DNA from: Patescibacteria group bacterium
GTDB lineage: Bacteria > Patescibacteriota > Patescibacteriia > UBA1558 > GWA2-36-10
Length of the DNA stretch: 64,000 bases
Direction of reading: 5' to 3'
Assembly: GCA_028718865.1 (NCBI GenBank)
Contig: JAQUKX010000003.1
Location: 33,214-97,213 of the forward strand
Shown here piece after piece: positions 19,126 through 44,366 of the stretch; the stretch's first letter is position 1; each line of letters begins with the position of its first letter. The notes below the pieces were generated by a model. The model saw only the letters and a list, made by a program, of their open reading frames with translations. It was not told the origin of the DNA and ran no database searches. The position numbers and the translations under genes are program-made.

Positions 19126-19201
19126 AGTTTTATGATGAGTTATCTTTATTTATTTTGTGAACCTCGCATCCGCTGTTAGCGAACGCATTTTTTCTATTTT
19201 T

Positions 19202-19600
19202 TTAGATATTTGAAATTTCTTTTCCCGTTCCCGTTTTAGACTTTTTTTTCAAAAAATATTTTTGAATCAAGTAACCCAAAAACGCAAAAAATAATCCAGA
19301 GACAAGAAAGGTAATGATAACAACTCCGGCCACATCCTCATTTGGATTCAGATAGCGCAAAGTTGCTATTACGCCACCAGCAACTATCTCGCCGAAAATA
19401 AATCCGCTAATTAATCCTGTTTTGGCCTGCTTTTCTGTAAGTTCATACGCAAAGCCTGCGCCAAACAAGACGATGCCGAAAAAAGCAAAAGCAGTCCAAG
19501 GCCAATCCCACCCATCAACAAGCATATTTCCAAAGAATGGAATCAGTAAAATGGCTATAGTTAAGAGCAATGGCCTAATAATAATTTTTGTATTTTGCAT
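19202..19600 (-). CDS. Hypothetical small membrane protein (cassette ORF).
   Basis: 132 aa with 3-4 TM helices. Its ATG lies inside the L-type site (GTGTTATG on the minus strand). Confidence 0.5.
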   Translation of the reverse strand: MQNTKIIIRPLLLTIAILLIPFFGNMLVDGWDWPWTAFAFFGIVLFGAGFAYELTEKQAKTGLISGFIFGEIVAGGVIATLRYLNPNEDVAGVVIITFLVSGLFFAFLGYLIQKYFLKKKSKTGTGKEISNI

Positions 19601-19640
19601 AACACACTGGGATATCTGAAGTTGCCGAATTTACTTTTTT
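19598..19640. repeat. Degenerate L-type cassette site.
   Basis: CATAACACACTGGGATATCTGAAGTTGCCGAAT; compare the L consensus CATACAACAGACAAGCGTATCTGAAGTCCCGAA. A degenerate R-type site lies at 19155-19190 (GAACCTCGCATCCGCTGTTAGCGAACG). Confidence 0.5.
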
Positions 19641-20569
19641 CTTTCTCGGTTGTGAATATATTTGTCCAAAGCTTCTTTTGAGCTTAGCCAATTACGGCCA
19701 TCCTTTTGAGCTTCTAGTTTACCCTGTCTAGTTAGTAGATTAAGATATTTGGCTGAGTATGGTGTGCCTTTAGCTAAGACGGCCAGGGACACTAATTTTT
19801 CTTTAGTGTTTTGAGGGGCTAAAGTTTTAAGATAAATATCAAAAGATCTTTCTACTGTTTGAGCGATGAAATTTACAAGCGGAGCATAATCACCCTTGTC
19901 GGCTTTGGCTAAAACATTGTAGTATTTTTTTCGATCATTTTTAAGAATGATAGCTAGAGGATAGCCAGCTTTCATTAATATCAAATTCATAGCCAGTCTA
20001 GCAGTGCGGCCATTGCCGTCAAAAAATGGATGAATATGCACTAGTTTATGGTGAAACAAGGCGGCTAGCTCAATAGTAGGTATATTTTTAAAATTGTTTT
20101 TTAACCAAGCTAGTAGTTGTTCCATTAATTTCGGTACCTCATAGGCATCAGGCGGATTATGCGCAGCGCCAGCTATATAGACATTAGCACTTCGGTATTT
20201 GCCAGCTTGATCTTTTTCAGTTTCTTGCACAATGATTTGATGCAAAGAGCGGATCAATCTTTCAGAGACGGTATTTTGTTTATCGCTATCAATCAAATCA
20301 TATAGATACTCCAGAGCCGCATAATGGTTTTTGGCTTCTAGATGATCTTTGAGCGGCTTGCCTTTGACAGTAATGCCCTCATTGATCACTAAAAAAGTTT
20401 CTTTTAAAGTCAAGCTATTACCCTCGATAGCGTTAGAATTATAGGTCATCTCCAGTCTAAATCTTTCTTGCAGTTTTTTGACCCCGGCTTTAGGCAAGGG
20501 CCGTAATTTATTTAGTTCTTTTTTTTTTGCTTCTAGTCTAGAAGCAATTTGTTTATTTAAGTAATTCAT
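19631..20569 (-). CDS. Fic/Doc-family protein (cassette ORF).
   Basis: 312 aa with the canonical Fic motif HPFFDGNGRTARL. Confidence 0.8.
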   Translation of the reverse strand: MNYLNKQIASRLEAKKKELNKLRPLPKAGVKKLQERFRLEMTYNSNAIEGNSLTLKETFLVINEGITVKGKPLKDHLEAKNHYAALEYLYDLIDSDKQNTVSERLIRSLHQIIVQETEKDQAGKYRSANVYIAGAAHNPPDAYEVPKLMEQLLAWLKNNFKNIPTIELAALFHHKLVHIHPFFDGNGRTARLAMNLILMKAGYPLAIILKNDRKKYYNVLAKADKGDYAPLVNFIAQTVERSFDIYLKTLAPQNTKEKLVSLAVLAKGTPYSAKYLNLLTRQGKLEAQKDGRNWLSSKEALDKYIHNRERKK

Positions 20570-20799
20570 ATAAATAATTTAATATGGTATATCTAACTTT
20601 TTATATTATACCATATTAAGAAAAAAAGTAAATTCGGCAATTTCAAGTGAAGCCAAGAAAAGAAATAGAGCTTTATAGTCTATTTCTTCTGGTGATGGTT
20701 GATGTTCAAAATGCTCGTTCATAATATTTTATTTAGTCCGCCTCTGGCGGGAACCGCATACGTGATGTTGGGCGATGTATTGCGCAGTTATTAATTTAT

Positions 20800-21080
20800 A
20801 ATAAATGCTCTTAGGGGATGAGGGAAGCGTGGGCTTCCCTCTGAGGAAGTATAGTACTGACCATGAGTTGGTCAGTTATTTCTCCTGCGGAAAAGTCGAT
20901 GGAGAAAATTGTGCCTTTTTCTCGGTGGCATGCAAGGAATGGGCGGACCGAGGTAGCCGAGCATACGCTGGTCAGCTCTCCGTGAGTACTCCTGTGCGAG
21001 ACGGAGGTAATTACGAGAAACCGCACCCTGTTTTTTCATAAGAAAACCTTTCCTGTTGGAGGTGAACGAACGTGGTCATC
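20800..21080. ncRNA. GC-rich (~55%) structured element with 12-bp terminal inverted repeats; candidate ncRNA of unknown class.
   Basis: CTTAGGGGATGA...TCATCCCCTAAG termini. Internal hairpins include GGGAAGC/GCTTCCC, CTGACCA/TGGTCAG, GAGAAAA/TTTTCTC and CTCCGT...ACGGAG. The two overlapping track ORFs here (20805..21041 plus, 20811..21026 minus) are mutually exclusive and are most likely artefacts of GC richness. Confidence 0.3.
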
Positions 21081-21340
21081 CCCTAAGAGTATTTAATTTT
21101 AAAAGTATCAACAAATAAGTTTAATCTCTATAAATATCATTGTCAATATAGAGCAATATTTTGCCTAACTGTCTTCAGTATGCGAAGTTGCCTCGCATAT
21201 TTCAGTGATATAATTTTACCATCACTGAAATAAAGAGGCAATTTGCACGAAACCCTAGCTTTTTAGGCTAGGGTGTAGTCGCATACTGGGTGTTGTGCGT
21301 TTTTTAATAAATATTTTTTAATTATATATTTTGATAGGTT

Positions 21341-22045
21341 TTAGTTGTTTTTTAATACACAAGCATTGTTTGATCTATAGTATCCAGAGTTACATGTCCA
21401 ACCATTGCCTAAATAATTTAAGCTAGCATTTGTTGGAGGCTGAACTTTTATACAACTATTGTTTGATCTATAAAAACCATAATCACATGTCCAACCGTTA
21501 CCTAGGTAATTTAATTTTGCATTTGCAGGAACATCGACAGCTACACAAGCATTGTTTGATCTATAGTATCCAGAGTTACATGTCCAACCATTGCCTAAAT
21601 AATTTAAGCTAGCATTTGTTGGAACAATGATAGTTTTTTTAGCGCTAAGATTTTGGTTTGTGGTATTTAAGTTTATACTTGAGCCGGAGTTTTTATTTTC
21701 ATATAATGATTTTCCTACGTAGTAGTCTGGGTCCGTTGTCCAAGTTGGCGTGTCCCAAGTTGATCCTTTTGTTCCGTAAGTTTTATTATATAAACCTTGG
21801 GATGATGTCCAGCTATAATTGTCATATTTTAATCCATTTGGATTACTACGAACATGTGGTTGGACATATGTGCCATTGCTTCTGTAGTAGCCTTTTACTG
21901 AAACATATGCGTCAGCATTGTTTATAAAAGTAGTTGAGCCAATAATTACTACTAAGGTAAAAATAGCTATAAATTTTTTGAATAAATTTTTCATAGTTTT
22001 GATAATAATATTTAGTATATTACCATAAAATTGTATTATTGTCAA
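21341..22045 (-). CDS. Secreted repeat protein with three ~31-aa Cys-containing tandem repeats (cassette ORF).
   Basis: Signal peptide; repeats P[TA]NA[SK]LNYLGNGWTC[ND][SY]G[YF]YRSNN[AS]C[VI]. The underlying 93-bp DNA repeats at 21350-21620 are nearly identical. Confidence 0.6.
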   Translation of the reverse strand: MTIIQFYGNILNIIIKTMKNLFKKFIAIFTLVVIIGSTTFINNADAYVSVKGYYRSNGTYVQPHVRSNPNGLKYDNYSWTSSQGLYNKTYGTKGSTWDTPTWTTDPDYYVGKSLYENKNSGSSINLNTTNQNLSAKKTIIVPTNASLNYLGNGWTCNSGYYRSNNACVAVDVPANAKLNYLGNGWTCDYGFYRSNNSCIKVQPPTNASLNYLGNGWTCNSGYYRSNNACVLKNN

Positions 22046-22244
22046 GGTTATTTTTTTGTCTACAAAAACCTATCAAATTCTTTATTATAAGAAAAATATT
22101 TATTAAATTGCGTACAACAGGCCAGGATATGAGAAGTCCCGAAACCTACTAATATGATACAATAAATCACCCTAAAGGGCGATGCATTATATTAGCAGTT
22201 GAGGGATTTTGATAAAAAAGTTGTAAATTTTAAGCTATTTTTAA

Positions 22245-22295
22245 TATTGACAAGTTTATTTAAATATGATATAATGATACATTAAATTCCGGCCA
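22245..22295 (+). promoter_or_regulatory. Consensus sigma70-like promoter for the GC-rich ORF 22328-22618.
   Basis: TTGACAAGTTTATTTAAATATGATATAATG (TTGACA-N17-TATAAT), followed by the SD AACAGGAGGGTAATACTGTG. Confidence 0.55.
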
Positions 22296-22327
22296 ACCTT
22301 AGTGTTAGTTAACAGGAGGGTAATACT

Positions 22328-22618
22328 GTGAAGAAAGTCGTTCTTATCATCATCGCGATCTTCGCGCTCCTGCTCGTTTCCGGTTGCGCCGGGACCAATT
22401 CGGTTCAGAACACGCCTGGTAGCAATGGCGTGGCTGGGTTCTGGTCTGGCCTCTGGCACGGCATGATCGCGCCGATCAGCTGGTTAATCTCCCTCTTCAA
22501 CTCCAACGTGAACATCTACGAGGTTCACAACAACGGTGGCTGGTACGACTTTGGTTTCGTGCTTGGCGCCGGGATTCTGGCCAGAGGGAGCCGATCCTCA
22601 CGTAGGCGCGAGCACTGA
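22328..22618 (+). CDS. Small GC-rich (~60%) lipoprotein; a self-contained expression unit inverted relative to neighbouring cassettes.
   Basis: MKKVVLIIIAIFALLLVSGCAG lipobox, GTG start with a strong SD, and a terminator hairpin ACTAGTTGTCCCTAACAACTAGTTTTCTTTT at 22630-22665. Confidence 0.6.
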   Translation: MKKVVLIIIAIFALLLVSGCAGTNSVQNTPGSNGVAGFWSGLWHGMIAPISWLISLFNSNVNIYEVHNNGGWYDFGFVLGAGILARGSRSSRRREH

Positions 22619-22734
22619 ACAAGATCATGGGTTTACTAGTTGTCCCTAACAACTAGTTTTCTTTTACATAAAAAATTTACAACTTTTTTATCTCATATCC
22701 GGTGTTGGGCGATGTTTATGAATTGACAAATTTA

Positions 22735-23148
22735 TTACAGGTTAGTTTCTAAAATTAAATCATAATCTTTGAAACTGTTTTTTCTATAGAAGTTGATGCC
22801 TTTAATATTTTGAGCAGATGCAACTACGCGTAACCTGCTAATGTTTTTCGACTTACTCCAATTAATAAATGATTGGCAAAGTTTTGAACCTATACCGATA
22901 CCTCTGTATCTTTCCAATACAAACGTACTTTCAAGTTCAGCATAATTTAGTATAGACCTATAAGCATCTTTACTATTGACGAGACTGCCCGTTAGATAGC
23001 CTACAATCTCATTATCTATATAAACCACAAAAGCGCAACTATCATTTTTACTAATACATTTTTTAAAATATTCAGTACCATGCTTACTAAATGTCCATTT
23101 ACAATCAATGGTATCATCAAATTCCGCATACTCCTTTTTAAGTAGCAT
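22735..23148 (-). CDS. GNAT-family N-acetyltransferase (cassette ORF).
   Basis: 137 aa; acetyl-CoA-binding motif RYRGIGIGSKL. Confidence 0.75.
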   Translation of the reverse strand: MLLKKEYAEFDDTIDCKWTFSKHGTEYFKKCISKNDSCAFVVYIDNEIVGYLTGSLVNSKDAYRSILNYAELESTFVLERYRGIGIGSKLCQSFINWSKSKNISRLRVVASAQNIKGINFYRKNSFKDYDLILETNL

Positions 23149-23214
23149 TAGGTTTAATTCTTGAATTTTTTTAAATCTTTATTTGTAGCGTCTTTGATTT
23201 CAAATTTCATATAT

Positions 23215-23400
23215 TTATTTGTCAATTTATAAATTTCGCATAACATCGCGATTATCTGAAGTTTCAGCGAAGCTGAAATTTGGGGATTTTTCGCAGGAAA
23301 ATCCCAGATAATCGCTGTTATCTGTCCTGAGCCGAAGGCGAAAGTCTGCAAGACGTGGCGAGGATTTGCGAAGCAAACCGCAGAGTTAATTTGGAATTTG
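23215..23400. repeat. L-type cassette site (long variant).
   Basis: GCATAACATCGCGATTATCTGAAGTTTCAGCGAAGCTGAAATTTGGGGATT...; compare 27905-28005. The track ORF 23154..23351 overlaps it and is judged spurious. Confidence 0.5.
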
Positions 23401-23428
23401 TGGATGGTGGGAAGGTTATTTGGGCACC

Positions 23429-24328
23429 TTATATTAAGGCGATAATCTCTGGAAGATAAAGCAACACAACACCAAAGACAATTAACAAAATTGGAGCAAT
23501 ATTTTTATTAAAATTGTTTTCTACACTTATCTTTATCCCAATTTTGTGAGCAATGGACTCCAAGATTAATACTGCAAATGGTTGTGTTGCTGCTATTGAA
23601 GAAACAATTGTTGCAGGTAATCCTGCCATTGCGAAATAGGTTGTAAATATCCCCAAAAAAGTTAAACTTTCATTGAGCAATGCCCATTTAATATTTTTTA
23701 GCTCTTTGGGAAACCCCAATCTTATCTTTTTATTGAATAAACCGGGCAGTATAATTAAGCCAACACAAATACTGCTTATAGCTATGCCATTTAATTCTGG
23801 CAAGTTATTTGTTGCAATTTTAATAAAGAACTCGTAAAGAGCAACAACAATGATAAGCGAAATAATCATCCACAAAGAAACTTTTAATCTAATTTGTTTC
23901 GCTTTGACAGAAAGAAAAATTACTCCTAATAATATCATACTCATTCCAAAATAGCTTATCAAGGATAATTTTTCGTTAAGGAATAGGAAAGATAAGATTG
24001 CAACAATAATTGGATAAACATAAACAAAACCTATTACATTTGAAACATCTTCTTTTCCTAGCATATAATAATATAGAAAAAATTGGGAGCCAAAAATTAA
24101 ACCTGCGATTGCGGGGAAAAGCAAATCATTTATAGCTATGTTTGTCCAATTAAGAAAAAGAGCTAAAATAATTCCAATTGCTAAATTTACAATTCCTGCA
24201 ACAATTGTAAAACTGAGGGTATTTTTAACTCTATGAGAAACTACAAATTTATCAAGCACATTCATAAATCCCCAAATAAATGGAGAGATTATCGCAAAAA
24301 TTAATGGTAAAAATATGGGTGTTGTCAT
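23429..24328 (-). CDS. EamA/DMT-superfamily transporter (cassette ORF).
   Basis: 299 aa with ~10 predicted TM helices in two repeats. Confidence 0.55.
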   Translation of the reverse strand: MTTPIFLPLIFAIISPFIWGFMNVLDKFVVSHRVKNTLSFTIVAGIVNLAIGIILALFLNWTNIAINDLLFPAIAGLIFGSQFFLYYYMLGKEDVSNVIGFVYVYPIIVAILSFLFLNEKLSLISYFGMSMILLGVIFLSVKAKQIRLKVSLWMIISLIIVVALYEFFIKIATNNLPELNGIAISSICVGLIILPGLFNKKIRLGFPKELKNIKWALLNESLTFLGIFTTYFAMAGLPATIVSSIAATQPFAVLILESIAHKIGIKISVENNFNKNIAPILLIVFGVVLLYLPEIIALI

Positions 24329-24617
24329 TTTCCTCTTTTACAATTAATTGATTTCTTATTTATTAAGCTATCGTAAGGTGCCCACAAATTAGGAGATGGT
24401 GGTCAGGGGTTACAAATTCCAAATTAATTACAGATAACACACCAGGATATCTGAAGTTGCCGAATAAATATCCGTGATAGAATAATTATAACATCACGGA
24501 TATTTAGAGGCAATTTGTAGTGGAACTCAAGAAAAAATAGAGCATAGTATAAAAATGGCCAAAATCAGATAAAAGTATATAAATTTTACCTAATATTAGC
24601 CAATATTTGCCATTTAT

Positions 24618-24716
24618 GCTTGACAGATTGTGGTATATATGGTATCATTATATATTACTTTGGGAATAAGCCTGAAGTAAGTACCTGAACAAAGTTTCAA
24701 TGAAAGGAAGCTGGTC
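24618..24716 (+). promoter_or_regulatory. Promoter and SD of the DGR target gene.
   Basis: GCTTGACAGATTGTGGTATATATGGTATCATTATAT (TTGACA ... TATCAT/TATAT) and the SD GAAAGGAAGCTGGTC-ATG. Confidence 0.5.
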
Positions 24717-25802: not shown

Positions 25803-25838
25803 AAGTTTTCGACAAAAAAGTCCCGTTTTTACTCGGGA

Positions 25839-36660: not shown

Positions 36661-36680
36661 CGAAAAGCAGACTATGTTTC

Positions 36681-37736: not shown

Positions 37737-37764
37737 ACAATTTTATTTAGTTGCTTTTCGCTAT

Positions 37765-38151: not shown

Positions 38152-38159
38152 ATTTTTTA

Positions 38160-38210
38160 TTGTTAGCTCGCGAACCGCATACGCGGTGTTGTGCGCTGTC
38201 AGATGTATTG
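38160..38210. repeat. R-type cassette half-site.
   Basis: GCTCGCGAACCGCATACGCGGTGTTGTGCGCTG; itself a ~33-bp imperfect palindrome. Confidence 0.6.
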
Positions 38211-38227
38211 AATTTTAAAAATTTGCA

Positions 38228-38331
38228 GCTCTTGACATATTATTAGATATATTATATTATAATATATCGGCTTTAATGGCCGAAACCCAGCTACGAGGCG
38301 GTCGTAGCAGTTCTTTCAAAGGAGTTGTCAC
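38228..38331 (+). promoter_or_regulatory. Consensus promoter and SD for the GC-rich ORF 38332-38859.
   Basis: CTTGACATATTATTAGATATATTATATTATAATAT (TTGACA ... TATAAT) and CAAAGGAGTTGTCAC-ATG. Confidence 0.5.
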
Positions 38332-38859
38332 ATGACGGCCAAGAATGCTGTCGCCGACGATGTCCTCGGACGGATCACTCGTAAGCTTCTGGACTTGTTG
38401 CGTCGAATCCTTGAGGGTTCGGTGGAAACCACTCGGGCCTCATTCTTCATCCAGCGTGCAATCGAGAATCCGCCGACCCCCAAGACCCCCGGTCCGGGAG
38501 AAGCGGGCATCTACGTACTCGAGAGCTACTGGTGCTACGACAAGGCGAACTACGATTTCGCTACGATCAGCTTGGAGTGGGGTGGTGAGCCTACTTGGTT
38601 TTTCGAAGATCTTCTCAAGGAAGACATCTCGGAGGACGCTAGGGGCTTTTTGCTGCGCACGCTTCGGCGGATTTACGAAGCGCAGATCCCAGATCATGGT
38701 CGGCGGAGGATGATGCGGCTCTATCGCGTCTCTTACCGCAATTGTCTGGGAAATTTCGAGGGTTCTCTGGGTCGTCCACTTCGTGACCTTCATTTCTCGC
38801 TTGAGCCTGTTTGTGAGTTCGACGAACAAGGCGAACCCCTTCCCGTCGGAACACTGTAG
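38332..38859 (+). CDS. GC-rich (~58%) hypothetical protein; inverted self-contained unit.
   Basis: 175 aa, no signal peptide. The overlapping ORFs 38345..38713, 38440..38871, 38639..39028 and 38328..38510 are GC artefacts. Confidence 0.55.
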   Translation: MTAKNAVADDVLGRITRKLLDLLRRILEGSVETTRASFFIQRAIENPPTPKTPGPGEAGIYVLESYWCYDKANYDFATISLEWGGEPTWFFEDLLKEDISEDARGFLLRTLRRIYEAQIPDHGRRRMMRLYRVSYRNCLGNFEGSLGRPLRDLHFSLEPVCEFDEQGEPLPVGTL

Positions 38860-38939
38860 TCTCAAGTACAAGGCAACATGATATCGTTCCCGCCGAGTAG
38901 CGTAAGCAAAAGGCGGGTTTTTTATTTGTATAAAATTTT

Positions 38940-39180
38940 AGATTAAGAAAATACATCTGATTGCGTACAACAGTCAGGCGTATGCGATGTCCCGAACGAG
39001 CTTTGCGGTAAAATAGTGCGGAGCACACCGCAAAGGCGAGTGAGGGATGTAGGCTAAAGCTTACACCTATTATATAGTAAAATTAAAAGTGCCTAAGCTA
39101 ATTTAAGCACTTTTATTCTTTCTTTACAAGCAAACTCTAGTGTGAGCTTAGCCGCATACGCGGTGTTGTGTGAAGTACAT
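38940..39180. repeat. Compact complete cassette site.
   Basis: TGCGTACAACAGTCAGGCGTATGCGATGTCCCGAACGAGC...GAGTGAGGGATGTAGGC...AAAAGTGCCTAAGCTAATTTAAGCACTTTT...GCCGCATACGCGGTGTTGTGTGAAG. Confidence 0.65.
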
Positions 39181-39248
39181 GTTTTCCTTAGAAATTGTTT
39201 TATCAAATTTACTAGAAAATCCGATTTTGTTTTTAAAGATAGGTTATT

Positions 39249-40502
39249 TTATGCCCCAAAAGCAAATATTTGTTGTTGTGAATATGTGGGTTCTTCTATT
39301 TCTTCTTCAATCTCACCATTTAACATTTTTATTAAGTTGGTACCTATGTGATAGCCAAGATTTACTGGCACGGCATTGCCAATTTGTTTATATTGTTGAG
39401 AAACTGAGCCAGAAAATTTCCAATTGTCTGGGAATGTTTGTATTCTTGCATATTCTCTCACAGTGAGAGGCCTTGTTTCTTCTGGGTGACATCTCTCTGT
39501 TTGTTTTTGTGCGGGGCTACAAGTTAAAGTCAATGAAGGTTCATCCCAAGATAGTCTTCTTGCCATTCCAGTTTTGCCACCGCCCATATAAAAACTTGCC
39601 CCCATGTATTCTTTCTGTAAGTTTTCCGGTAAATCTCTCCAATATCCACCTGGTGGTATAAGTTTTAGAATTTTTTTCTTTTTTTCAGGGTACTCTTGTC
39701 CTTCAGATTTTGGACATTTATCAAAAGCTTCTCGTAGTGAAATTATATAGTCTTTTTCTTTTGGGAATACTATCGGAATATTTAGATCATTTCTAACGCC
39801 TATAATAATTAGACGCTCTCTTTTTTGCGGAACATCTAAATATTGGGAACGGAGGACTTTGTATTTTACCTTATAACCAATTTCTTCTAAAACAGAAATC
39901 ATAGTTTTTAAAGTTCTTCCATTATCATGAGTTAGTAAGCCCCGCACATTTTCACCAATAGCTATTTTTGGCTGTACTTCTTTTACACATCTGGCAAATT
40001 CAAAAAACAATGTTCCTCTGATATCTTCAAAACCCATTTTTCTTCCAGCGTATGAAAAAGTTTGACAAGGAAAGCCGCCCTGGACAATATCAGCTTGTCC
40101 TTTTGTAAATTTTAAATTACGAATGTCATCTTCAATTACATTCCAATGAGGTTTGTTTATTCTTAAAGTTTGGCAGGCGTGTTTATCATATTCATTTAAT
40201 AGAACGTGTTGAATGCCCGCATTTTCCATTCCTAATGCAGTGCCCCCAGCTCCAGCAAATAACTCAATAGCGGTGTAAGGGGATGATTCTTTATTTTTTA
40301 AAATTTTAAATTTATTGCTTTTGGTTCCTTGTGTTTTATTTTGTACCCGTTTGATTTCTTCTAAGCTAAAAATGCGGGCATTTTTGTCATCCCTAAAAGA
40401 TTTTACAAGGCCTCTTTTGTCCCAACGCCTTATTGTATCGACTGAAATGTTTAGTAGATTTGCTGTTTGACCAGCAGTAAAATGTTTTTGTTTATTTTTC
40501 AT
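39249..40502 (-). CDS. DNA (cytosine-5)-methyltransferase with an N-terminal MerR-like HTH.
   Basis: 417 aa; N-terminal QTANLLNISVDTIRRWDKRGLV; MTase motifs LFAGAGG (I), GFPCQTFSYAGR (IV), ENVRGL (VI), QIGNAVPV (X). Confidence 0.85.
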   Translation of the reverse strand: MKNKQKHFTAGQTANLLNISVDTIRRWDKRGLVKSFRDDKNARIFSLEEIKRVQNKTQGTKSNKFKILKNKESSPYTAIELFAGAGGTALGMENAGIQHVLLNEYDKHACQTLRINKPHWNVIEDDIRNLKFTKGQADIVQGGFPCQTFSYAGRKMGFEDIRGTLFFEFARCVKEVQPKIAIGENVRGLLTHDNGRTLKTMISVLEEIGYKVKYKVLRSQYLDVPQKRERLIIIGVRNDLNIPIVFPKEKDYIISLREAFDKCPKSEGQEYPEKKKKILKLIPPGGYWRDLPENLQKEYMGASFYMGGGKTGMARRLSWDEPSLTLTCSPAQKQTERCHPEETRPLTVREYARIQTFPDNWKFSGSVSQQYKQIGNAVPVNLGYHIGTNLIKMLNGEIEEEIEEPTYSQQQIFAFGA

Positions 40503-40567
40503 ATAAAAAATGATAGAGGATATCTATCATTAGTATATCATAATAACCACTGCCTATGCAAAGGTTA

Positions 40568-41275
40568 TTATGTGGAAAAAGCCATTTGGAATAATTTAAA
40601 GTATTCCCTCATTTCTTTTTGGCTAAGATTATATTTATGTTTGTCCATTATAACCTTTGGCAATACTTCAAATAATTCTTGTAGAGCCTTTTCTCTTCCG
40701 GTTGCCAGCGCATAAAAACTAACGCCATCTATAACTCTTATTTTATTGTTGGAAGGGCGGCGTTTTCCATTCTTTTTATTATCTGAAGGCACGAAGGGCT
40801 TGTCATATTTTTTCTTTCCTTGTGGTATGATCTCTACAAAGTAACCAGTATAACCACTATATCTTTCCATTTTTAATTTTGATTTTATTGAATCATAAAT
40901 CTCAACTTTATGGTTGCCTTTTGTAGTATTAAATTTATTTTTTACTTCCGCAATAATTTTCATTTTTTCATTTATGACGTCTAAGCCGCCCCCTTTACCT
41001 AAATTTTGCCAGTCATTAACAGAACCTAAAATATCTTGGTGAAAATCACCAATAGCATTTTGCATTGTTTTTTGAATTTGTCTAGCTTTTTCTAATTCCA
41101 GCCAGTCTTTACAAGATATTGAGTGAGTTACACCATGAAACAAGGCCGAAAAAGGGTCTATTACATTTTTATACAATTTTTTTTCTGCGTCATTTTCTGC
41201 AGCATCTATTACTGTAATAACTTTTTTTACTGCAGCGCATAGATCTTTGTCTGATATAAATTTTAGATAAGGCAT
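40568..41275 (-). CDS. Candidate type II restriction endonuclease, partner of the C5-MTase.
   Basis: 235 aa directly downstream of the MTase in the same cassette. Possible PD-(D/E)xK arrangement GLDVINEKMKIIAEVK. Assignment is by context only. Confidence 0.4.
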   Translation of the reverse strand: MPYLKFISDKDLCAAVKKVITVIDAAENDAEKKLYKNVIDPFSALFHGVTHSISCKDWLELEKARQIQKTMQNAIGDFHQDILGSVNDWQNLGKGGGLDVINEKMKIIAEVKNKFNTTKGNHKVEIYDSIKSKLKMERYSGYTGYFVEIIPQGKKKYDKPFVPSDNKKNGKRRPSNNKIRVIDGVSFYALATGREKALQELFEVLPKVIMDKHKYNLSQKEMREYFKLFQMAFST

Positions 41276-41389
41276 GGGTATTTAAAAAATTATTTACTAA
41301 AGATATTATAGCTTAATTACTATATTAAATAAACAATTAAAAAAAATCGGATTTTTAATATTTCAAGCTTAATGATTTACTTAGGAAAA

Positions 41390-41510
41390 CATGTATTTCA
41401 TACAACAGACAAGCGTATGCGAAGTCACGAAGTGAGTGAAGGGGCTATAATTTCGGCAGAGCCGAGCCCCGAAATGAACGAGTGATTTGGGTGAGCGAGT
41501 TAAATATTAT
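41390..41510. repeat. L-type cassette half-site.
   Basis: TCATACAACAGACAAGCGTATGCGAAGTCACGAAGTGAGTGAAGG...GAACGAGTGATTTGGGTGAGCGAG. Confidence 0.6.
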
Positions 41511-41761
41511 TGTTGTTTTATTTTAGTTTTCCCTAATTTACTTAATAGCTCCGCAATAAATCCGGATAATATTCCCACAATAGCTCCTTTTAGGAGTATT
41601 AACCAATTAAAATTATTACCTTGGAATTTTAATGCCAAAGAAATGATAGCTCCAATAATAATGCCCAATGTCAGTCCGCCCCACACTGCATTTTTTGATT
41701 TCCAATACATTAATAATAATATGATTGCTATTACGCCTAATATTATCCAAATTGTGTTCAT
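41507..41761 (-). CDS. Small membrane protein (2-3 TM).
   Basis: 84 aa; MNTIWIILGVIAIILLLMYW... The antisense ORF 41487..41783 is spurious. Confidence 0.45.
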   Translation of the reverse strand: MNTIWIILGVIAIILLLMYWKSKNAVWGGLTLGIIIGAIISLALKFQGNNFNWLILLKGAIVGILSGFIAELLSKLGKTKIKQQ

Positions 41762-41777
41762 GTTTTTATTTAAATTT

Positions 41778-41822
41778 ATTTAACTCGCGAACCGCATACG
41801 CGGTGTTGTGTGATGTTTGAAC
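41778..41822. repeat. R-type cassette half-site.
   Basis: ACTCGCGAACCGCATACGCGGTGTTGTGTGATG. Confidence 0.6.
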
Positions 41823-41828
41823 CCTTTT

Positions 41829-42680
41829 TTATATTTTTTTAATATGATTATTTTCTAATACATATTCAGATTCGAAATTGAAGACATTTTTAGGAAGTGG
41901 ATTTTTAGCAAAGGGATTATGGACTAATACTACCCGTTTACCCAATTTTTCATTTACAAGATTGATTAAATGATCAGTGCAGTAGATTATTGCTGAGATT
42001 TCTTTATGACTATTATTGCAAAAATAGGTTGTGTCAATTTCAATACCATTTTTCTTTTTTATTTTAGGGCGCAGTGAGTAGCCAGATTCTTTTGTTTTTA
42101 AATTTATTTGTTGATGCCCAACTGCAAAAACGGCACTGAGGATAAGAGGAAATCCAGGGTCAATATGTTGTGTTTCATATCTATTTATAGCAATAATAAA
42201 TGGTTCATTATCTTTTACTTGTTGGTTTAAATATTTATTGATAAAAATATTATATTTTATATCTATCGCATTAGTTATTCTAATGATCATTTGTTCTTCT
42301 GGTAAATCTTGACACTGGATTTCTGACAGATCTTCAGCTACATACATTTCGTCTACAGCGTCATTTCCTCTTGATGCAGTAGTTGTTTCACACCAAGCTA
42401 TTGAGTCTTCAATTTCGAATTTAATATCAGGGCCAGAGTTTGATTTAGAATATATTTTTATTTTTTGATCAAGAAATATACATGCAAGATACATTTCCCA
42501 TAATCTTTGATGAAATTGATTTCTGGTTTCAATTAAAAAATTATCATCAGCATAGGGGTAATATTTTTTCCAAAGATTTTCAATAAAAATACGAAAATAT
42601 TCTCTTTCCTTTTCATCTCGGTTGAAGATATAATTTTTATCTTGTGCTGATTTATTGTTAAAAAAGGGTTCAAATTTCAT
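41829..42680 (-). CDS. Hypothetical protein, 283 aa (cassette ORF).
   Basis: Its start codon is the CAT of the L-site CATACAACAG; on the minus strand this reads GTTGTATGAAATTTGAA, i.e. the start overlaps the GTTRRRY-like core. Confidence 0.5.
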   Translation of the reverse strand: MKFEPFFNNKSAQDKNYIFNRDEKEREYFRIFIENLWKKYYPYADDNFLIETRNQFHQRLWEMYLACIFLDQKIKIYSKSNSGPDIKFEIEDSIAWCETTTASRGNDAVDEMYVAEDLSEIQCQDLPEEQMIIRITNAIDIKYNIFINKYLNQQVKDNEPFIIAINRYETQHIDPGFPLILSAVFAVGHQQINLKTKESGYSLRPKIKKKNGIEIDTTYFCNNSHKEISAIIYCTDHLINLVNEKLGKRVVLVHNPFAKNPLPKNVFNFESEYVLENNHIKKI

Positions 42681-42822
42681 ACAACAGACAAGCGTATGAG
42701 AAGTTGACCGTGGAGTAGCTATGATAAAATTATATCATCATAGCTACGAACGGGCAATTTGCGAAAACCAGCCTTTTTTGGCTGTTTTTCCTCATACGCG
42801 GTGTTGTGTGATGTCGAATTTT
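42678..42822. repeat. Compact complete cassette site (shortest, ~145 bp).
   Basis: CATACAACAGACAAGCGTATGAGAAGTTGACCG-[hairpin ATGATAAAATTATATCATCAT]-...CCTCATACGCGGTGTTGTGTGATG. Confidence 0.65.
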
Positions 42823-42864
42823 CTTAATATAAAGGCCATTATTTAGGGGAATTTTTATTATTTT

Positions 42865-42966
42865 TAAGATTGACAGAATGTAGTATTTATGATATAATAC
42901 ACTATTCGCCAAAAATAGACTAATTCTGGCTATTGGCGTGTACACCACAGTCAGGAGGTAAGAAAG
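42865..42966 (+). promoter_or_regulatory. Consensus promoter and SD for 42967-43266.
   Basis: GATTGACAGAATGTAGTATTTATGATATAATAC (TTGACA-N17-TATAAT) and AGTCAGGAGGTAAGAAAG-ATG. Confidence 0.55.
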
Positions 42967-43266
42967 ATGTACGGACCTCTTTTTCAAATCAGTGACGAGC
43001 TCGTTTGGAAGGACGAGCCTGCCCCAGGGCACGAAGAGGCTGGCCCCTTCAAGGTGGCCACTGTCGAGAACAACAACGACCCTGATGCTTGCGTATGCGG
43101 TGCATCCCGCAAGAACGGTTACATTCACTACGACGACGTCGAAGAAGGTGACTGCTGCGGTGAACTGCCGGCACAGTGGGTGACGATCACCTGCAACGGG
43201 ATCATCGTCAAGAACCGTGATGGCTCTGACGCCGTCTTCTGCTCTGACTGGTTCCGCAAGGCCTGA
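42967..43266 (+). CDS. Small GC-rich (~58%) Cys-rich protein; the cassette nearest the recombinase, inverted.
   Basis: 99 aa with 7 Cys (CVCG...CCGE...C...C). A palindrome CCCGGGTTAGAATAGGGTCTC follows the stop. The ORF 42992..43183 is spurious. Confidence 0.55.
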   Translation: MYGPLFQISDELVWKDEPAPGHEEAGPFKVATVENNNDPDACVCGASRKNGYIHYDDVEEGDCCGELPAQWVTITCNGIIVKNRDGSDAVFCSDWFRKA

Positions 43267-43377
43267 ACGGCCAGCCCTCTACGAGACCCGGGTTAGAATA
43301 GGGTCTCATTTTTTTACTTCAAAAAATTCCCAAACTAAAAAATAATCTCTAAAAGATTATTTATCTAATGAATAGAA

Positions 43378-43466
43378 AATTCGATTTCATACAACAGCTT
43401 GTTTGTGCACCTATTGACAGTTTAGCCAATATCAGCCAACATGTAAATAGATATCATTAATCACAA
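43378..43466. promoter_or_regulatory. Terminal L-type site plus candidate attI / recombinase promoter region.
   Basis: TTCATACAACAGCTTGTTTGTGCACCTATTGACAG... immediately upstream of the recombinase gene. It is the last site of the array. Confidence 0.4.
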
Positions 43467-44366
43467 ATGCTTATGAAGAAAAGCAATTTGTCCCGTTTTC
43501 CACGGGATATTGAGAGCAAGTCTCGTTTTTTAATTGATCTGTCAACTGGTCATCCTCTGGCCAATCTGGTCCAAGAGCTCATTATCAGAGGATTTTCTCG
43601 TCGTACTATCAAAAGCTATTTGTCGCAGAACCAGCGATTTTTGGACTGGTTAGGCTCTTCAGCAAAAGAAGTCAGTTCTCAAGACATCAAAAATTATCTG
43701 CTTTATCTAAAATCTCAAGGCCAGAGCAATACTTCTCTCAACCAGACTATTTCCGCTCTAAAATTTTATTACAGCCAAATCTTAAAGAGGAAGCTGTTTT
43801 TTAATATCAAGCGGCCAAAAAAAGAAAAATTTTTACCGGTGGTTTTGACCAGAAATGAAGTTATAAAAATTATCAATGCTTCTTCTAATTTAAAACATAA
43901 ACTACTTTTGTCTTTACTCTATGGCTCAGGACTAAGAGTGTCTGAAGTAGTCAAAATAAAAATCAGTCATTTGGATCTAGCTAGCAAAAGCTTGTTGGTC
44001 AAAGATAGCAAAGGCGCCAAAGATAGATATACATTATTAAGTGGTATTAGCTTGAAATTTTTAAATTTATACTTAGCACGATTGCCACGGGAGCAAAAAT
44101 ATTTGTTTGCCGGTCAGTCGGAACAAAGCCGATTAAGTCAGCGTAGTGCTCAAAAAATATTTGAGCATGCTTTGGAAAAGTCCGGCTTAAAAAAAGAAGC
44201 GTCTTGCCATAGTTTGCGTCATTCTTTTGCCACGCACCTCTTAGAAAAGGGAGTAGACATCCGCCATATTCAAAAATTATTAGGCCATCAGAATATCAAG
44301 ACTACTGAAATCTATACTCAAGTAGTCAGAGATTTTTGGCAGGGCATCAGGAGTCCTTTGGATTAG
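43467..44366 (+). CDS. Tyrosine site-specific recombinase with an IntI-like C-terminus (integron-integrase-like).
   Basis: 299 aa; catalytic R...HxxR...Y (SLRHSFATHLLEKGVDIRHIQKLLGHQNIKTTEIYTQVVRDFWQGIRSPLD). The ending GIRSPLD parallels GVRSPLD of IntI1. Its length is Xer-like, so the IntI-specific extra domain may be absent; this is not resolved. Confidence 0.7.
   Translation: MLMKKSNLSRFPRDIESKSRFLIDLSTGHPLANLVQELIIRGFSRRTIKSYLSQNQRFLDWLGSSAKEVSSQDIKNYLLYLKSQGQSNTSLNQTISALKFYYSQILKRKLFFNIKRPKKEKFLPVVLTRNEVIKIINASSNLKHKLLLSLLYGSGLRVSEVVKIKISHLDLASKSLLVKDSKGAKDRYTLLSGISLKFLNLYLARLPREQKYLFAGQSEQSRLSQRSAQKIFEHALEKSGLKKEASCHSLRHSFATHLLEKGVDIRHIQKLLGHQNIKTTEIYTQVVRDFWQGIRSPLD

What the first reader, a model, noticed from the sequence alone, without database searches (positions are those of the whole stretch)
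19130..44366. Integron-like 24-kb gene-cassette array with an IntI-like recombinase in an AT-rich CPR-like genome
From ~19.1 to 43.4 kb, more than 25 short ORFs are packed with tiny intergenic gaps. Almost all are on the minus strand, and a single family of structured repeats separates them. The array ends at a tyrosine recombinase (43467-44366) transcribed divergently from the cassettes. Its C-terminus (TEIYTQVVRDFWQGIRSPLD) parallels the IntI1 ending (MIYTHVLKVGGAGVRSPLD), not XerC/D. The repeat ends are imperfect inverted repeats of each other: CATACAACAGACAAGCGTATGCG versus CGCATACGCGGTGTTGTGTGATG, with extrahelical bases as in attC R/L boxes. Some copies carry canonical cores, GTTAGGC at 34208 and GCCTAAC at 34871. 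Cargo is classic cassette content: Fic, GNAT, Nudix, SDR, HD, an RM pair, and small secreted or membrane hypotheticals. An integron-like array of this architecture, with a DGR embedded in it, in a CPR-like genome would be unusual.
Basis: partly seen in the sequence, partly recalled or inferred. Interest (0 to 1): 0.9.

Follow-up and report, generated by a model that had tools for sequence, protein, structure and literature searches.

The report
Integron-like cassette array, domain-less recombinase
A 24-kb stretch of a Patescibacteria (CPR) chromosome is built like an integron, with a recombinase gene, an insertion site beside it and about 16 swappable gene cassettes separated by folding recombination sites, but its recombinase lacks the extra domain thought to define integron integrases and about half of its sites carry whole genes inside their hairpin.

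Summary
Two repeat ends, L (AACAGACAAGCGTATGCGA) and R (GCATACGCGGTGTTGTG), alternate 16 times between 19.16 and 42.8 kb. All are on one strand and none occurs elsewhere in the window (9 and 11 hits against 0.01 and 0.03 expected).

Each L pairs with the next R through a 9-bp box that covaries (12 variants). An outer box reads RYYYAAC/GTTRRRY-like. A conserved attI-like site shares only the L-type half and abuts the recombinase gene.

A DGR unit is about 95% identical in a related MAG. There it abuts attI; here it lies 16 kb away, and similarity ends at ...AT|CAG. Each cassette's outer R box matches its own far end, not its array neighbour (0/10000 permutations), which is the signature of circularisable integron cassettes.

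The same design recurs upstream of homologous recombinases across CPR (38-92% identity).

It is not a canonical integron:
- The 299-aa recombinase lacks about 41 residues of the IntI additional domain and scores below the IntI cut-offs, though it keeps the IntI-like SPLD tail.
- The site asymmetry is inverted and there are no L-box extrahelical bases.
- Half the sites enclose genes (0.4-2.7 kb, including the DGR) bracketed by perfect 19-24-bp inverted repeats.
- A -10-like motif sits in an internal hairpin.

No description was found in the literature searched.

The parts
43467..44366 (+). Tyrosine recombinase, 299 aa, Xer/IntI-type simple YR that lacks the IntI additional domain and ends in GIRSPLD
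43382..43466 (.). attI-like site plus the recombinase promoter region. It reads ATTTCATACAA|CAG-CTTGTTTGTGCACCTATTGACA..., with the inferred crossover between 43394 and 43395. The part left of the bar belongs to the first cassette.
   Evidence: Conserved upstream of every homologous recombinase gene. The L008 DGR cassette joins it at ...CTAT|CAG.
19163..43394 (.). Whole cassette array, from the orphan leftmost R-type end to the attI crossover; about 16 cassettes
19163..19186 (+). Leftmost R-type end (CTCGCATCCGCTGTTAGCGAACG) with no L partner; marks the end of the array
19601..20778 (+). Degenerate site: the L box GGATATCTG does not pair with its R box. The Fic gene (19631-20569, minus strand) sits inside the P2 hairpin, closed by TTGCCGAATTTAC/GTAAATTCGGCAA.
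21167..21303 (+). Compact attC-like site (L box CAGTATGCG / CGCATACTG)
22116..22715 (+). attC-like site enclosing a + strand ORF (22328-22618) with its own promoter; 20/20-bp closing inverted repeat 22212-22231 / 22672-22691
24436..27224 (+). attC-like site (GGATATCTG / CAGATATCC) enclosing the whole DGR; 24/24-bp closing inverted repeat 24520-24543 / 27177-27200. Together with 27225-27326 it forms one cassette shared with L008.
24717..25400 (+). DGR target gene, with VR at 25272-25388
25686..25802 (+). DGR template repeat
   Evidence: All 16 of 16 TR/VR differences are at TR adenines
26157..27158 (+). DGR reverse transcriptase
   Evidence: RVT_1, E 6e-20; 89.5% identical to L008
27325..27536 (+). 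Compact attC-like site (three-way junction type A)
27914..28502 (+). attC-like site (GCGTATCTG / CAGATACGC) enclosing ORF 28021-28440 (minus strand); 24/24-bp closing inverted repeat 28008-28031 / 28443-28466
29081..29290 (+). Compact attC-like site
30672..30883 (+). Compact attC-like site with an ATAG-type R end
31979..32714 (+). attC-like site enclosing the serine-hydrolase ORF 32086-32661 (minus strand); 21/21-bp closing inverted repeat
33507..34225 (+). attC-like site enclosing the HD-domain ORF 33613-34206 (minus strand); its R end carries GTTAGGC
34880..35533 (+). attC-like site (GGGTAGCTG / CAGGTACCC, one mismatch, spacer 1 nt shorter) enclosing ORF 35008-35481 (minus strand); preceded by GCCTAAC
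36465..36658 (+). Compact attC-like site (GCATACGCG / CGCGTATGC)
37772..38199 (+). attC-like site enclosing ORF 37864-38151 (minus strand)
38969..39176 (+). Compact attC-like site
41404..41816 (+). attC-like site enclosing ORF 41507-41761 (minus strand)
42683..42814 (+). attI-proximal compact attC-like site (GCGTATGAG / CTCATACGC): R stem, asymmetric spacer, L stem, P2 hairpin and a terminator-like P3 hairpin
   Evidence: 94% identical to L037 136-280
42815..43394 (+). Body of the first cassette: a reverse-oriented ORF (42967-43266, + strand) with a consensus promoter at 42870-42898 and a terminator
39249..41275 (-). Cassette carrying a restriction-modification pair (Eco47II-type endonuclease 40568-41275; HTH plus C5 methylase 39249-40502)
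41829..42680 (-). Cassette ORF similar to the PD-T7-5 / PD-T7-1 defence candidates; its ATG lies within the R' box (GTTGTATG)

Best explanation
This is a sedentary chromosomal gene-cassette platform that works like an integron.

**Components.** The recombinase encoded at 43467-44366 would act on two kinds of site.
- A double-stranded attI-like site lies just upstream of its own gene.
- attC-like sites are read as folded single strands.
- In a folded attC-like site on the + strand (the strand complementary to most cassette ORFs, i.e. the 'bottom' strand), an outer R stem forms from ...CATACAA-CA with TG-TTGTGTG...
- Next comes an asymmetric unpaired spacer, then a 9-bp L stem (GCGTATGCG with CGCATACGC).
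- These close a variable terminal structure made of a conserved hairpin (P2) and a second arm (P3).

**Crossover.** Strand exchange would occur between the second and third base of the AAC (or ATC) triplet on the L side, 7 nt from the L box. This is the same position as in integrons.

**Cassette unit.** In + coordinates a cassette runs from that C through its attC-like site and the following body to the next ..AA.
- Cassettes would excise as circles, in which the R'' box pairs with the cassette's own other end.
- They would insert at attI, so new cassettes push old ones away from the recombinase.

**Shown here.**
- The anatomy.
- The covariation.
- The conservation of the attI-like site.
- The boundary of one shared cassette.
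- The own-end complementarity.
- The strand bias.
- The recurrence of the design across CPR.

**Inferred.**
- That this recombinase is the catalyst.
- That the substrate is single-stranded.
- The exact cleavage bond.
- Present-day activity.

**Departures from canonical integrons.**
- The recombinase has no IntI additional domain, and accordingly the sites have no extrahelical bases in the L box.
- The terminal structure often holds whole genes, clamped by perfect 19-24-bp inverted repeats.
For: **Repeats.** The repeats are far above chance and have a single polarity.

**Covariation.** In 33 L-R pairs from the window and 7 related loci the L stem is 99.7% paired. Seven of its 9 pairs show double changes, and there are 12 different box sequences. 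This includes pairs separated by 0.4-2.8 kb.

**Folding.** Compact sites fold with z-scores of -5.8 to -8.6. The + strand is 2-3 kcal/mol more stable than the - strand. The R arm has 71 G.T pairs against 13 A.C on the + strand. [quoted passage not shown]

**attI-like site.** All 14 close relatives tested carry the conserved sequence [cassette end]A(A/T)|CA(G/C/A)-TGTGTTTGCGCACCTGTTGACA directly upstream of the gene.

**Shared cassette.** Window 24436-27329 matches L008 at about 95% identity.
- It abuts attI in L008 and the next attC-like L box in the window.
- Similarity stops at ...CTATCAG on the right and begins at AACAC on the left.

**Own-end complementarity.**
- The outer R box matches the 9 nt before the next L site at 6.55 of 9 positions, against 4.86 +/- 0.21 in permutations (0 of 10000).
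- It matches the 9 nt before its own paired L site only at random level (4.82).

**Association with the recombinase.** In 18 related loci there are 14 R-type hits in 60.7 kb upstream of the recombinase gene, all in the same orientation. There are none in 134.7 kb downstream.

**Recurrence.** Recombinases at 38-45% identity carry arrays with an 11-bp covarying L box and canonical RYYYAAC / GTTRRRY boxes.

**Variable content.** Cassette content is almost entirely different between related genomes.

**Gene-bearing sites.** They still fold in the minimum-free-energy prediction and carry perfect closing inverted repeats.
Against: - The recombinase fails the accepted definition of an integron integrase: it lacks the additional domain and scores below the curated cut-offs. 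That domain is reported as necessary for IntI activity (Messier and Roy 2001, as cited in PMC9668308 and PMC4889954). [quoted passage not shown] This is opposite to the extrahelical bases that give strand choice in attC sites (PMC5027507).
- Folding across 0.4-2.7 kb of enclosed genes is kinetically unfavourable.
- No excised circle, empty site or within-population polymorphism was observed. Only one cassette boundary is documented by direct comparison.
- Outside the window, L-R pairs were picked with a complementarity filter, which inflates the paired percentage.
- The L-box covariation alone could also come from an RNA structure. That RNA would have to be made from the + strand, because the R-arm wobble pairs favour it.
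- I could not run the IntegronFinder attC model.
Confidence: 0.8

Rival explanations
1. The array is made of Xer-dependent modules of the pdif / IMEX type. The recombinase would be the cell's Xer enzyme and the attI-like site its dif. L and R ends would be ordinary double-stranded Xer sites in alternating orientation flanking gene modules, as in Acinetobacter pdif modules.
For: - The protein passes only the XerA-type model NF040815.
- Structurally it is as close to XerA as to IntI.
- L and R ends alternate, and genes lie in both L-to-R and R-to-L intervals.
- Candidate-phyla recombinases have been assumed to stand in for Xer (PMC8138268).
Against: - The L side has 7 nt between the R arm and the L box but the R side has only 4, so an R end is not a double-stranded equivalent of an L end.
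- The L box covaries through 12 sequences instead of being conserved as a protein-binding arm would be.
- attI and the documented cassette boundaries use only the L-type end.
- GC skew keeps the same sign on both sides of the locus, so it is not at a replication terminus.
- There are at least 16 sites in one place rather than one dif.
Confidence: 0.07
2. The repeats act mainly as RNA or transcription signals: processing stems, terminators and promoters that bracket each gene of a long operon region. They would have no role in recombination.
For: - Stems bracket individual ORFs exactly.
- P3 looks like a terminator, and P2 carries a positionally fixed -10-like motif.
- Base-pair covariation is equally expected for an RNA.
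Against: - This does not explain the attI-like half-site next to the recombinase gene or the shared cassette ending at AA|C.
- It does not explain the own-end complementarity of the outer R box.
- It does not explain the strict link to one recombinase family.
- G.T pairs favour the + strand, which is antisense to most genes.
- No Rfam family matches.
Confidence: 0.05
3. The repeats are miniature inverted-repeat or foldback transposable elements that accumulated in a permissive region. The neighbouring recombinase would be unrelated.
For: - The ends are imperfect inverted repeats.
- Many MAG contigs break at them.
Against: - There are no copies outside the array in 64 kb.
- All copies are in one orientation.
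- There are no target-site duplications.
- The elements are always upstream of the same recombinase family and never downstream.
- Their ends correlate with cassette ends in the integron manner.
Confidence: 0.03
4. It is a canonical integron whose integrase is simply a divergent IntI.
For: - The SPLD tail aligns with VchIntIA to the last residues.
- The TIGR02249 hit has E = 1e-60.
- The R boxes are RYYYAAC / GTTRRRY-like.
Against: - About 41 residues of the additional domain are missing in this protein.
- The whole clade is about 290 aa long.
- Scores fall below both IntI cut-offs.
- The L box has no extrahelical bases.
Confidence: 0.05

Closest known systems
Sedentary chromosomal integrons (for example the Vibrio superintegron with VCR sites) and archaeal integrons (PMC9668308)
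   Same: - The recombinase gene is divergent from a long array of mostly promoterless-looking small ORFs.
- An attI lies next to the gene.
- The attC-type sites are imperfect palindromes with R and L boxes.
- The crossover is at AA|C in the bottom-strand R' box.
- The R' box is a hybrid between neighbouring cassettes.
- The bottom strand is richer in G.T pairs.
- Sites within one array are homogeneous.
- The cargo includes defence, toxin-like and unknown genes.
   Different: - The recombinase has no IntI additional domain.
- The L box has no extrahelical bases; the asymmetry is a 3-nt surplus in the spacer on the AAC arm.
- The terminal structure is a conserved three-way junction with a fixed -10-like motif.
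- Half of the sites enclose genes of 0.4-2.7 kb clamped by perfect inverted repeats.
- The host is Patescibacteria.
XerA / XerCD-dif, and elements that integrate at dif using Xer (CTX-phi type, via a folded single-stranded attP)
   Same: - The recombinase is a simple Xer-type tyrosine recombinase of about 290 aa.
- A site lies beside the recombinase gene, as with xerS-difSL (from my own knowledge).
- The incoming element uses a folded single-stranded site, and successive integrations build an array (from my own knowledge).
   Different: - The locus is not at a skew switch.
- There are many sites.
- The cassettes are single genes, not phages.
- The site architecture is the R/L-box type of attC.
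- The C-terminal SPLD tail is shared with IntI, not with the Xer profiles.
pdif modules of Acinetobacter plasmids
   Same: Gene modules sit between recombination sites of alternating orientation, and a Xer-type enzyme is assumed to act on them.
   Different: - Here the two orientations are not equivalent (7-nt against 4-nt spacer).
- They pair with each other, with covariation.
- Only one orientation is used as a boundary.
CALIN (clusters of attC sites lacking an integron integrase, PMC4889954)
   Same: By IntegronFinder's rules this locus would probably be called a CALIN at best, because the neighbouring recombinase lacks intI_Cterm.
   Different: Here a specific recombinase family and an attI-like site are consistently attached to the array. 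It is therefore not an orphan cluster.

Membership tests
Integron (integron integrase IntI) | Tyrosine recombinase with the IntI-specific additional domain near patch III (PMC9668308, PMC4889954) | tested here: not met
   Against VchIntIA (2a3v), query residues 193-222 (30 aa) stand opposite chain residues 171-241 (71 aa). The hit to TIGR02249 is split into two stretches. The whole clade is about 290 aa long.
Integron (integron integrase IntI) | Score above the curated cut-off of the IntI models (TIGR02249, NF011946) | tested here: not met
   205.6 against 265 and 142.3 against 435. The IntegronFinder intI_Cterm profile itself could not be run.
Integron (integron integrase IntI) | IntI-type C-terminal tail (...G-x-x-SPL-) | tested here: met
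   GIRSPL aligns with GVLSPL at the end of VchIntIA. 115 of 120 homologues end in SPL(D). That this tail is typical of IntI rests on my own knowledge.
Integron (attC sites) | Imperfect palindrome with R''/R' boxes (RYYYAAC / GTTRRRY) and L''/L' boxes that pair in a folded single strand | tested here: met
   Canonical heptamers occur in some copies here (GCCTAAC, GTTAGGC) and throughout the distant family.
Integron (attC sites) | Extrahelical bases near L'', on the arm opposite the AAC triplet of the recombined strand (PMC5027507) | tested here: not met
   The L stem is 9-11 bp with no bulge. The 3 surplus bases are in the spacer on the AAC arm: 7 nt against 4 nt here and 4 against 1 in the distant family.
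Integron (attC sites) | Compact site of roughly 57-141 bp | tested here: inconclusive
   Seven sites are 132-212 bp. Nine span 0.4-2.8 kb with genes inside. Sites of the distant family are about 80-150 bp or 0.4-0.7 kb.
Integron (attC sites) | Match to the IntegronFinder attC covariance model | not testable with these tools
   The model is not in Rfam. An Rfam scan of 19-44 kb at E <= 1 found nothing.
Integron (platform) | An attI site next to intI that shares only the R-box half with attC sites | tested here: met
Integron (platform) | Cassette boundary at AA|C, with the R' box a hybrid of two cassettes and each cassette's R'' complementary to its own first bases | tested here: met
   One shared cassette shows the boundary. 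In the permutation test on 33 cassettes, 0 of 10000 permutations reached the observed value.
Integron (platform) | Bottom strand folds better than the top strand (more G:T pairs) (PMC5027507) | tested here: met
   71 G.T against 13 A.C. The + strand is 2.3-3.0 kcal/mol more stable.
Integron (platform) | Demonstrated excision and insertion of cassettes by the integrase | not testable with these tools
   No reads or experiments were available. The exact-match metagenome scan with the attI sequence returned only the L008 contig.
Xer / dif chromosome dimer resolution (XerA type) | Protein passes a Xer family model | tested here: met
   NF040815 scores 234.9 against a cut-off of 220. That model's own name reads 'site-specific tyrosine recombinase/integron integrase'.
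Xer / dif chromosome dimer resolution (XerA type) | A single dif site at the replication terminus (GC-skew switch) | tested here: not met
   Cumulative skew rises on both sides of the locus. There are at least 16 sites. The neighbouring housekeeping genes differ between genomes.
pdif modules | Equivalent double-stranded XerC/XerD sites with a 6-bp spacer in alternating orientation | tested here: not met
   The spacers are 7 and 4 nt, and the boxes covary rather than being conserved.
Diversity-generating retroelement (embedded cargo) | RT plus a TR/VR pair that differ only at TR adenines, with VR at the 3' end of a target gene | tested here: met

The most novel reading that the evidence does not exclude
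This may be a separate and possibly ancestral integron lineage that is widespread in CPR bacteria.

**Recombinase.** A Xer-sized recombinase without the IntI additional domain would run a full cassette platform. That would show the domain and the extrahelical bases are a co-evolved refinement rather than a requirement. It would also offer a living intermediate between Xer/dif (or CTX-type integration at dif) and integrons. The same enzyme type could be the missing partner of some attC clusters reported without an integrase.

**Sites.** The sites may do more than recombine.
- The P2 hairpin presents a TGnTAnAAT motif as a pre-melted fork junction on the recombined strand. It could act as a single-strand origin or primer site that converts an excised single-stranded cassette circle into a duplex.
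- The perfect inverted repeats that clamp genes inside the site may be a trace of how cassettes are made.
Probability: 0.35. Interest if true: 0.92.

Novelty: new variant of a known kind. Interest (0 to 1): 0.82.

Why it matters
**Definition of an integron.** Integrons are defined, and searched for, by an integrase that carries the additional domain. The standard survey concluded that recombinases lacking it next to attC sites are not integron integrases (PMC4889954). Candidate-phyla recombinases have been filed as Xer stand-ins (PMC8138268).

**What this locus shows.** A large CPR recombinase family without the domain is consistently attached to an attI-like site. The attached arrays hold up to about 16 cassettes and obey the integron junction rules.

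**If the system is active:**
- Integron-type gene capture extends to a major, poorly known part of the bacterial tree with tiny genomes, where it could be a main route of gene gain. The cargo seen here includes defence genes, a DGR, Fic and a restriction-modification pair.
- The idea that the additional domain is indispensable becomes testable.
- The system offers a simpler route to studying the origin of integrons.
- Current integron finders would be shown to miss a whole class.

**Open questions it bears on.** The genes enclosed in the hairpin and the promoter-like hairpin touch two open questions: how cassettes arise, and what happens to the excised single strand.

Tried and rejected
- **Exact look-up of the window's recombinase:** not on record.
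- **Exact-match metagenome scan with the attI sequence:** returned only the contig already held as L008, so there is no population-level polymorphism data.
- **Rfam:** at gathering threshold it gave only rRNA and tRNAs. At E <= 1 on the array it gave nothing.
- **Literature searches for integrons in CPR, Patescibacteria or Parcubacteria, and for DGRs with recombinases in CPR:** nothing relevant.
- **A second Xer-like gene in the window:** none found.
- **A partner for the leftmost R end:** none found.
- **Crossover at the R-type end (top-strand recombination):** considered and rejected. The shared DGR cassette keeps its right-hand body and loses its left neighbour. attI carries an L-type half.
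- **The attI-like site as dif:** rejected on GC skew.
- **P2 as a standard -35/-10 promoter:** the -35 is poor in most site types and the spacing is 15 nt here and 4-8 nt in the distant family. Only the -10-like element is conserved.
- **Inversion or deletion routes from compact sites to gene-bearing sites:** no simple recombination path produces them.
- **L037 comparison:** it showed the same attC type linked to different bodies. I did not over-interpret this, because sites within a lineage are homogeneous.
- **More distant homologues** in an archaeon (L014), Brevinematales (L013), Bacteroidales (L026) and another Patescibacteria MAG (L018): no array found.
- **Messier and Roy 2001:** could not be read.

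Full report
**1. The observation**

The region from 19.2 to 43.4 kb holds about 36 short ORFs, about 29 of them on the minus strand. Its G+C content is patchy (0.32-0.43) and its GC skew is flat, while skew is positive on both flanks.

- Fic
- GNAT
- EamA
- Nudix
- SDR
- an HD-domain protein
- a serine hydrolase
- an Eco47II-type endonuclease with a C5 methylase
- a PD-T7-5-like protein
- many ORFs with no family

Two repeat ends are present.
- The L end (...ATTTCATAC-AACAG-ACAA-GCGTATGCG-AAGT...) occurs 9 times at up to 3 mismatches, against 0.01 expected.
- The R end (...CGCATACGC-GG-TGTTGTGTGATGT) occurs 11 times, against 0.03 expected.
- With looser matching there are 16 L and 17 R ends. 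All are on the + strand, all lie between 19.16 and 42.8 kb, and they alternate L,R,L,R apart from an orphan R at the left end.

The window is chromosomal. It carries a 16S rRNA gene, seven tRNA genes and housekeeping genes.

The closest relatives of the recombinase are in Patescibacteria MAGs, so the CPR guess is right.

**2. Anatomy of a site**

Each L end pairs with the next R end. On the + strand the fold has four parts.
- An outer R stem (CATACAA-CA with TG-TTGTGTG, extendable to about 13 bp with G.T pairs).
- An asymmetric unpaired spacer.
- A 9-bp L stem.
- A terminal structure.

The seven compact sites (132-212 bp) fold with z-scores of -5.8 to -8.6. The + strand is always 2.3-3.0 kcal/mol more stable than the - strand.

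I assembled 33 L-R pairs from the window and seven related loci.
- The L stem is paired in 99.7% of cells.
- Seven of its nine pairs show changes on both sides.
- Twelve different box sequences occur, for example GCGTATGAG/CTCATACGC, GGATATCTG/CAGATATCC and GGATTGCCG/CGGCAATCC.
- Caveat: pairs outside the window were selected with a filter of at most one mismatch, so the percentage is partly built in. The window's variant pairs were found by consensus alone and each sits next to its matching partner.

The terminal structure is a conserved three-way junction.
- It contains a hairpin P2 whose outer and inner stems both covary (7 of 15 sequences changed on both sides at several pairs).
- It contains an arm P3 that in compact sites ends in a terminator-like hairpin.

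**3. The attI-like site**

Directly upstream of the recombinase gene lies ATTTCATACAACAG-CTTGTTTGTGCACCTATTGACA... (43382 onward).

The part from CAG rightward is conserved upstream of every close homologue examined (14 loci). The 9-12 nt to its left vary and look like the end of a cassette.

The site therefore shares with the attC-like sites only the L-type R-box half. That is how attI relates to attC in integrons.

Many public contigs end 100-340 bp upstream of the gene. This is what repeat-rich arrays do to short-read assemblies.

**4. Evidence that cassettes are units of recombination**

*(a) A shared cassette.*
- Window 24436-27329, which contains a complete DGR, is about 95% identical to L008 (about 4556-7447).
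- In L008 its right end joins attI. In the window it joins the L box of the next site, 16 kb from the recombinase.
- Similarity ends exactly at ...TCTGTCTATCAG. On the left it begins at AACAC, with unrelated sequence before it.
- The AT before CAG travels with the cassette. The CAC/CAG travels with the following L box or attI.
- This places the crossover at A(A/T)|C. That is the position reported for integrons: between the A and C of the AAC in R' of the bottom strand (PMC5027507).

*(b) Own-end complementarity.*
- In integrons the outer bases of each R' box belong to the next cassette. A cassette's R'' therefore matches its own first bases rather than its partner in the array.
- I tested this on 33 cassettes.
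- The 9 nt after GGTG in each R end are complementary to the 9 nt preceding the next L site at 6.55 of 9 positions. Permutations give 4.86 +/- 0.21, and 0 of 10000 reach the observed value.
- They match the 9 nt preceding their own paired L site only at random level (4.82).
- Rare variants match strikingly: ATAGATGAT with TTCATCTAT, TTAGCTGAT with TTCAGCTAA, and TTAGGCGAT with TTCGCCTAA.
- This test alone cannot tell whether the crossover is at the L-type or the R-type end. The DGR comparison and attI decide for the L-type end.

*(c) Strand bias.* The R arm contains 71 G.T against 13 A.C pairs on the + strand. This is the same bottom-strand bias reported for attC sites (PMC5027507).

*(d) Association with the recombinase.* In 18 related loci, R-type ends occur 14 times in 60.7 kb upstream of the recombinase gene, always in the same orientation. 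They never occur in 134.7 kb downstream.

*(e) Variable content.*
- Cassette content is almost completely different between genomes whose recombinases are 75-92% identical.
- The flanking housekeeping genes also differ between lineages.

*(f) Recurrence in distant relatives.*
- Recombinases only 38-45% identical (Uhrbacteria, Kerfeldbacteria and others) carry arrays of the same design.
- These have an 11-bp covarying L box, canonical RYYYAAC and GTTRRRY boxes and a 4-against-1 spacer.
- Several consecutive sites I checked by eye show the same own-end matches.

**5. The recombinase**

Family models.
- It has the SAM-like N-terminal domain and the catalytic domain.
- The only NCBIfam model it passes is NF040815 (XerA type, named 'site-specific tyrosine recombinase/integron integrase'), at 234.9 against a cut-off of 220.
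- The integron-integrase models are missed: TIGR02249 at 205.6 against 265, in two stretches, and NF011946 at 142 against 435.

Comparison with solved structures.
- Against VchIntIA, residues 39-192 and 223-298 align. The query has 30 residues where IntI has 71, so about 41 residues of the additional domain are absent.
- The tail GIRSPL aligns with GVLSPL at the very end of IntI.
- The tail is not covered by the XerA profile.
- An AlphaFold model (pLDDT 81) hits XerA and VchIntIA equally well.

The family.
- Among 120 homologues at 54-92% identity, the median length is 292 aa and 115 end in SPL(D).
- The protein is therefore a Xer-sized enzyme with one IntI-like trait.

**6. How it departs from integrons**

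*(i) No additional domain.*

*(ii) No extrahelical bases in the L box.*
- Canonical extrahelical bases lie near L'' on the opposite arm (PMC5027507).
- In VchIntIA those bases contact the integrase specifically (PMC5027507).
- A link between losing the domain and losing the bases is my inference.

*(iii) Genes inside the sites.*
- Nine of 16 sites in the window, and many in related loci, enclose genes between L'' and L'. Inserts of 371-694 nt hold one ORF. One insert of 2747 nt holds the whole DGR.
- These genes are bracketed by perfect inverted repeats that extend the stem:

| Left arm | Right arm | Paired |
|---|---|---|
| 24520-24543 | 27177-27200 | 24/24 |
| 28008-28031 | 28443-28466 | 24/24 |
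| 32076-32096 | 32658-32678 | 21/21 |
| 22212-22231 | 22672-22691 | 20/20 |
| 34990-35009 | 35485-35504 | 19/20 |

- Predicted single-strand folds of two such sites keep the R, L and clamp stems.
- The Fic gene sits in P2 rather than P3. It is shared with L004 (84% aa identity), with compensatory changes in its clamp, but in a different site background.
- I found no simple recombination route from compact to gene-bearing sites.

*(iv) A fixed -10-like motif.*
- A -10-like hexamer TAnAnT lies 22-25 nt after the L box in 31 of 38 sites (background 16%).
- It is preceded by TG in 21 of 38 (background 1.3%).
- It sits at the junction of the P2 stem and loop on the + strand, and it is also present in the distant family.
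- Its role is unknown. Candidates are a promoter for antisense or reverse-oriented genes, or a single-strand initiation site on the excised strand.

**7. Rivals**

- **pdif-type or dif-type Xer system.** It fits the protein family and the alternation of ends. It does not fit the unequal spacers, the covarying boxes, the exclusive use of L-type ends as boundaries, or the skew.
- **Purely RNA-level role.** It does not explain attI, the junction rules or the strand bias.
- **Dispersed transposable elements.** Excluded by distribution and polarity.
- **Canonical integron.** Excluded by the protein tests.

**8. Novelty**

- Searches of the held literature found no description of integrons or integron-like arrays in CPR.
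- Candidate-phyla recombinases are treated as Xer-related (PMC8138268).
- Recombinases without intI_Cterm next to attC sites were judged not to be IntI (PMC4889954).
- I therefore rate this a new variant of a known kind. It works like an integron but is not a member by the current definition.
- The main uncertainty is activity. No circles or polymorphic junctions were seen, and only one cassette boundary rests on a direct comparison.

Noticed in passing
window 24436-27329 (VR 25272-25388, TR 25686-25802, RT 26157-27158): A complete DGR is itself a cassette, enclosed in an attC-like site. The TR and VR differ at 16 positions, all at TR adenines. In L008 and L011 the DGR RT lies immediately next to the attI-like site.
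   Followed up: yes
window, 22-25 nt after each L box (e.g. 42727-42735, 21208-21216, 27365-27373): A positionally fixed TGnTAnAAT (-10-like) motif sits at the stem-loop junction of hairpin P2 on the + strand. It occurs in 31 of 38 sites and also in the distant arrays L025 and L028. Its function is unknown; possibilities are a promoter, an antisense RNA, or single-strand initiation.
   Followed up: partly
window 22236-22275, 29314-29353, 42859-42898 (also 31421-31448, 38232-38260): Near-consensus TTGACA-N17-TATAAT promoters on the + strand sit ahead of + strand ORFs, in most copies just after an R end. Reverse-oriented cassettes therefore bring their own promoter.
   Followed up: partly
window 43419-43447 (minus strand) and 43413-43447 (+ strand): Face-to-face candidate promoters lie between the attI-like site and the recombinase start. 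On the minus strand, TTTACA-17-TAAACT points into the cassettes. On the + strand, TTGACA...TGTAAAT points to the recombinase gene. This resembles a Pc/Pint arrangement.
   Followed up: no
window 21341-22045: The cassette ORF contains three tandem 93-nt repeats (82-nt cores, two of them identical) that encode a cysteine-rich repeat protein.
   Followed up: no
window 41829-42680 and 39249-41275: Defence cargo is present: a PD-T7-5 / PD-T7-1-like protein (E 3e-24) and an Eco47II-type restriction-modification pair whose methylase has an N-terminal MerR-type HTH.
   Followed up: partly
window 44895-45070 and 58026-60521: tRNA-Leu and tRNA-Val lie 0.5 kb downstream of the recombinase gene. The 16S rRNA gene is followed by tRNA-Ile, Phe, Pro and Gly. 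No 23S rRNA gene was found in the remaining 4.4 kb of the window.
   Followed up: no
L001, L003, L005, L006, L009, L010, L012, L021, L023, L027, L039, L041: Public contigs very often end 100-340 bp upstream of the recombinase gene, which suggests these arrays systematically break short-read assemblies. Such arrays are probably under-represented in MAGs.
   Followed up: partly
L020 631-3120; also L001, L006 and L010 just upstream of attI: GC-rich tandem copies of attC-like sites have only about 20 nt between an R end and the next L end, i.e. 'empty' cassettes. A 184-nt unit is repeated three times in L020.
   Followed up: no
window 19601-20778 versus L004 480-1645: The Fic gene with its 13-bp clamp lies in hairpin P2 of two different site backgrounds (different L box and P3). 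The clamped gene module may therefore move or recombine independently of the rest of the site. In the window copy the L box no longer pairs with its R box.
   Followed up: partly
L037 26-149 and 136-280 versus window 43275-43397 and 42674-42816: In the closest relative (recombinase 92% identical), the end of the window's first cassette lies to the left of a 94% identical attC-like site instead of to its right. A different gene abuts attI. The cassette order near attI therefore differs.
   Followed up: partly
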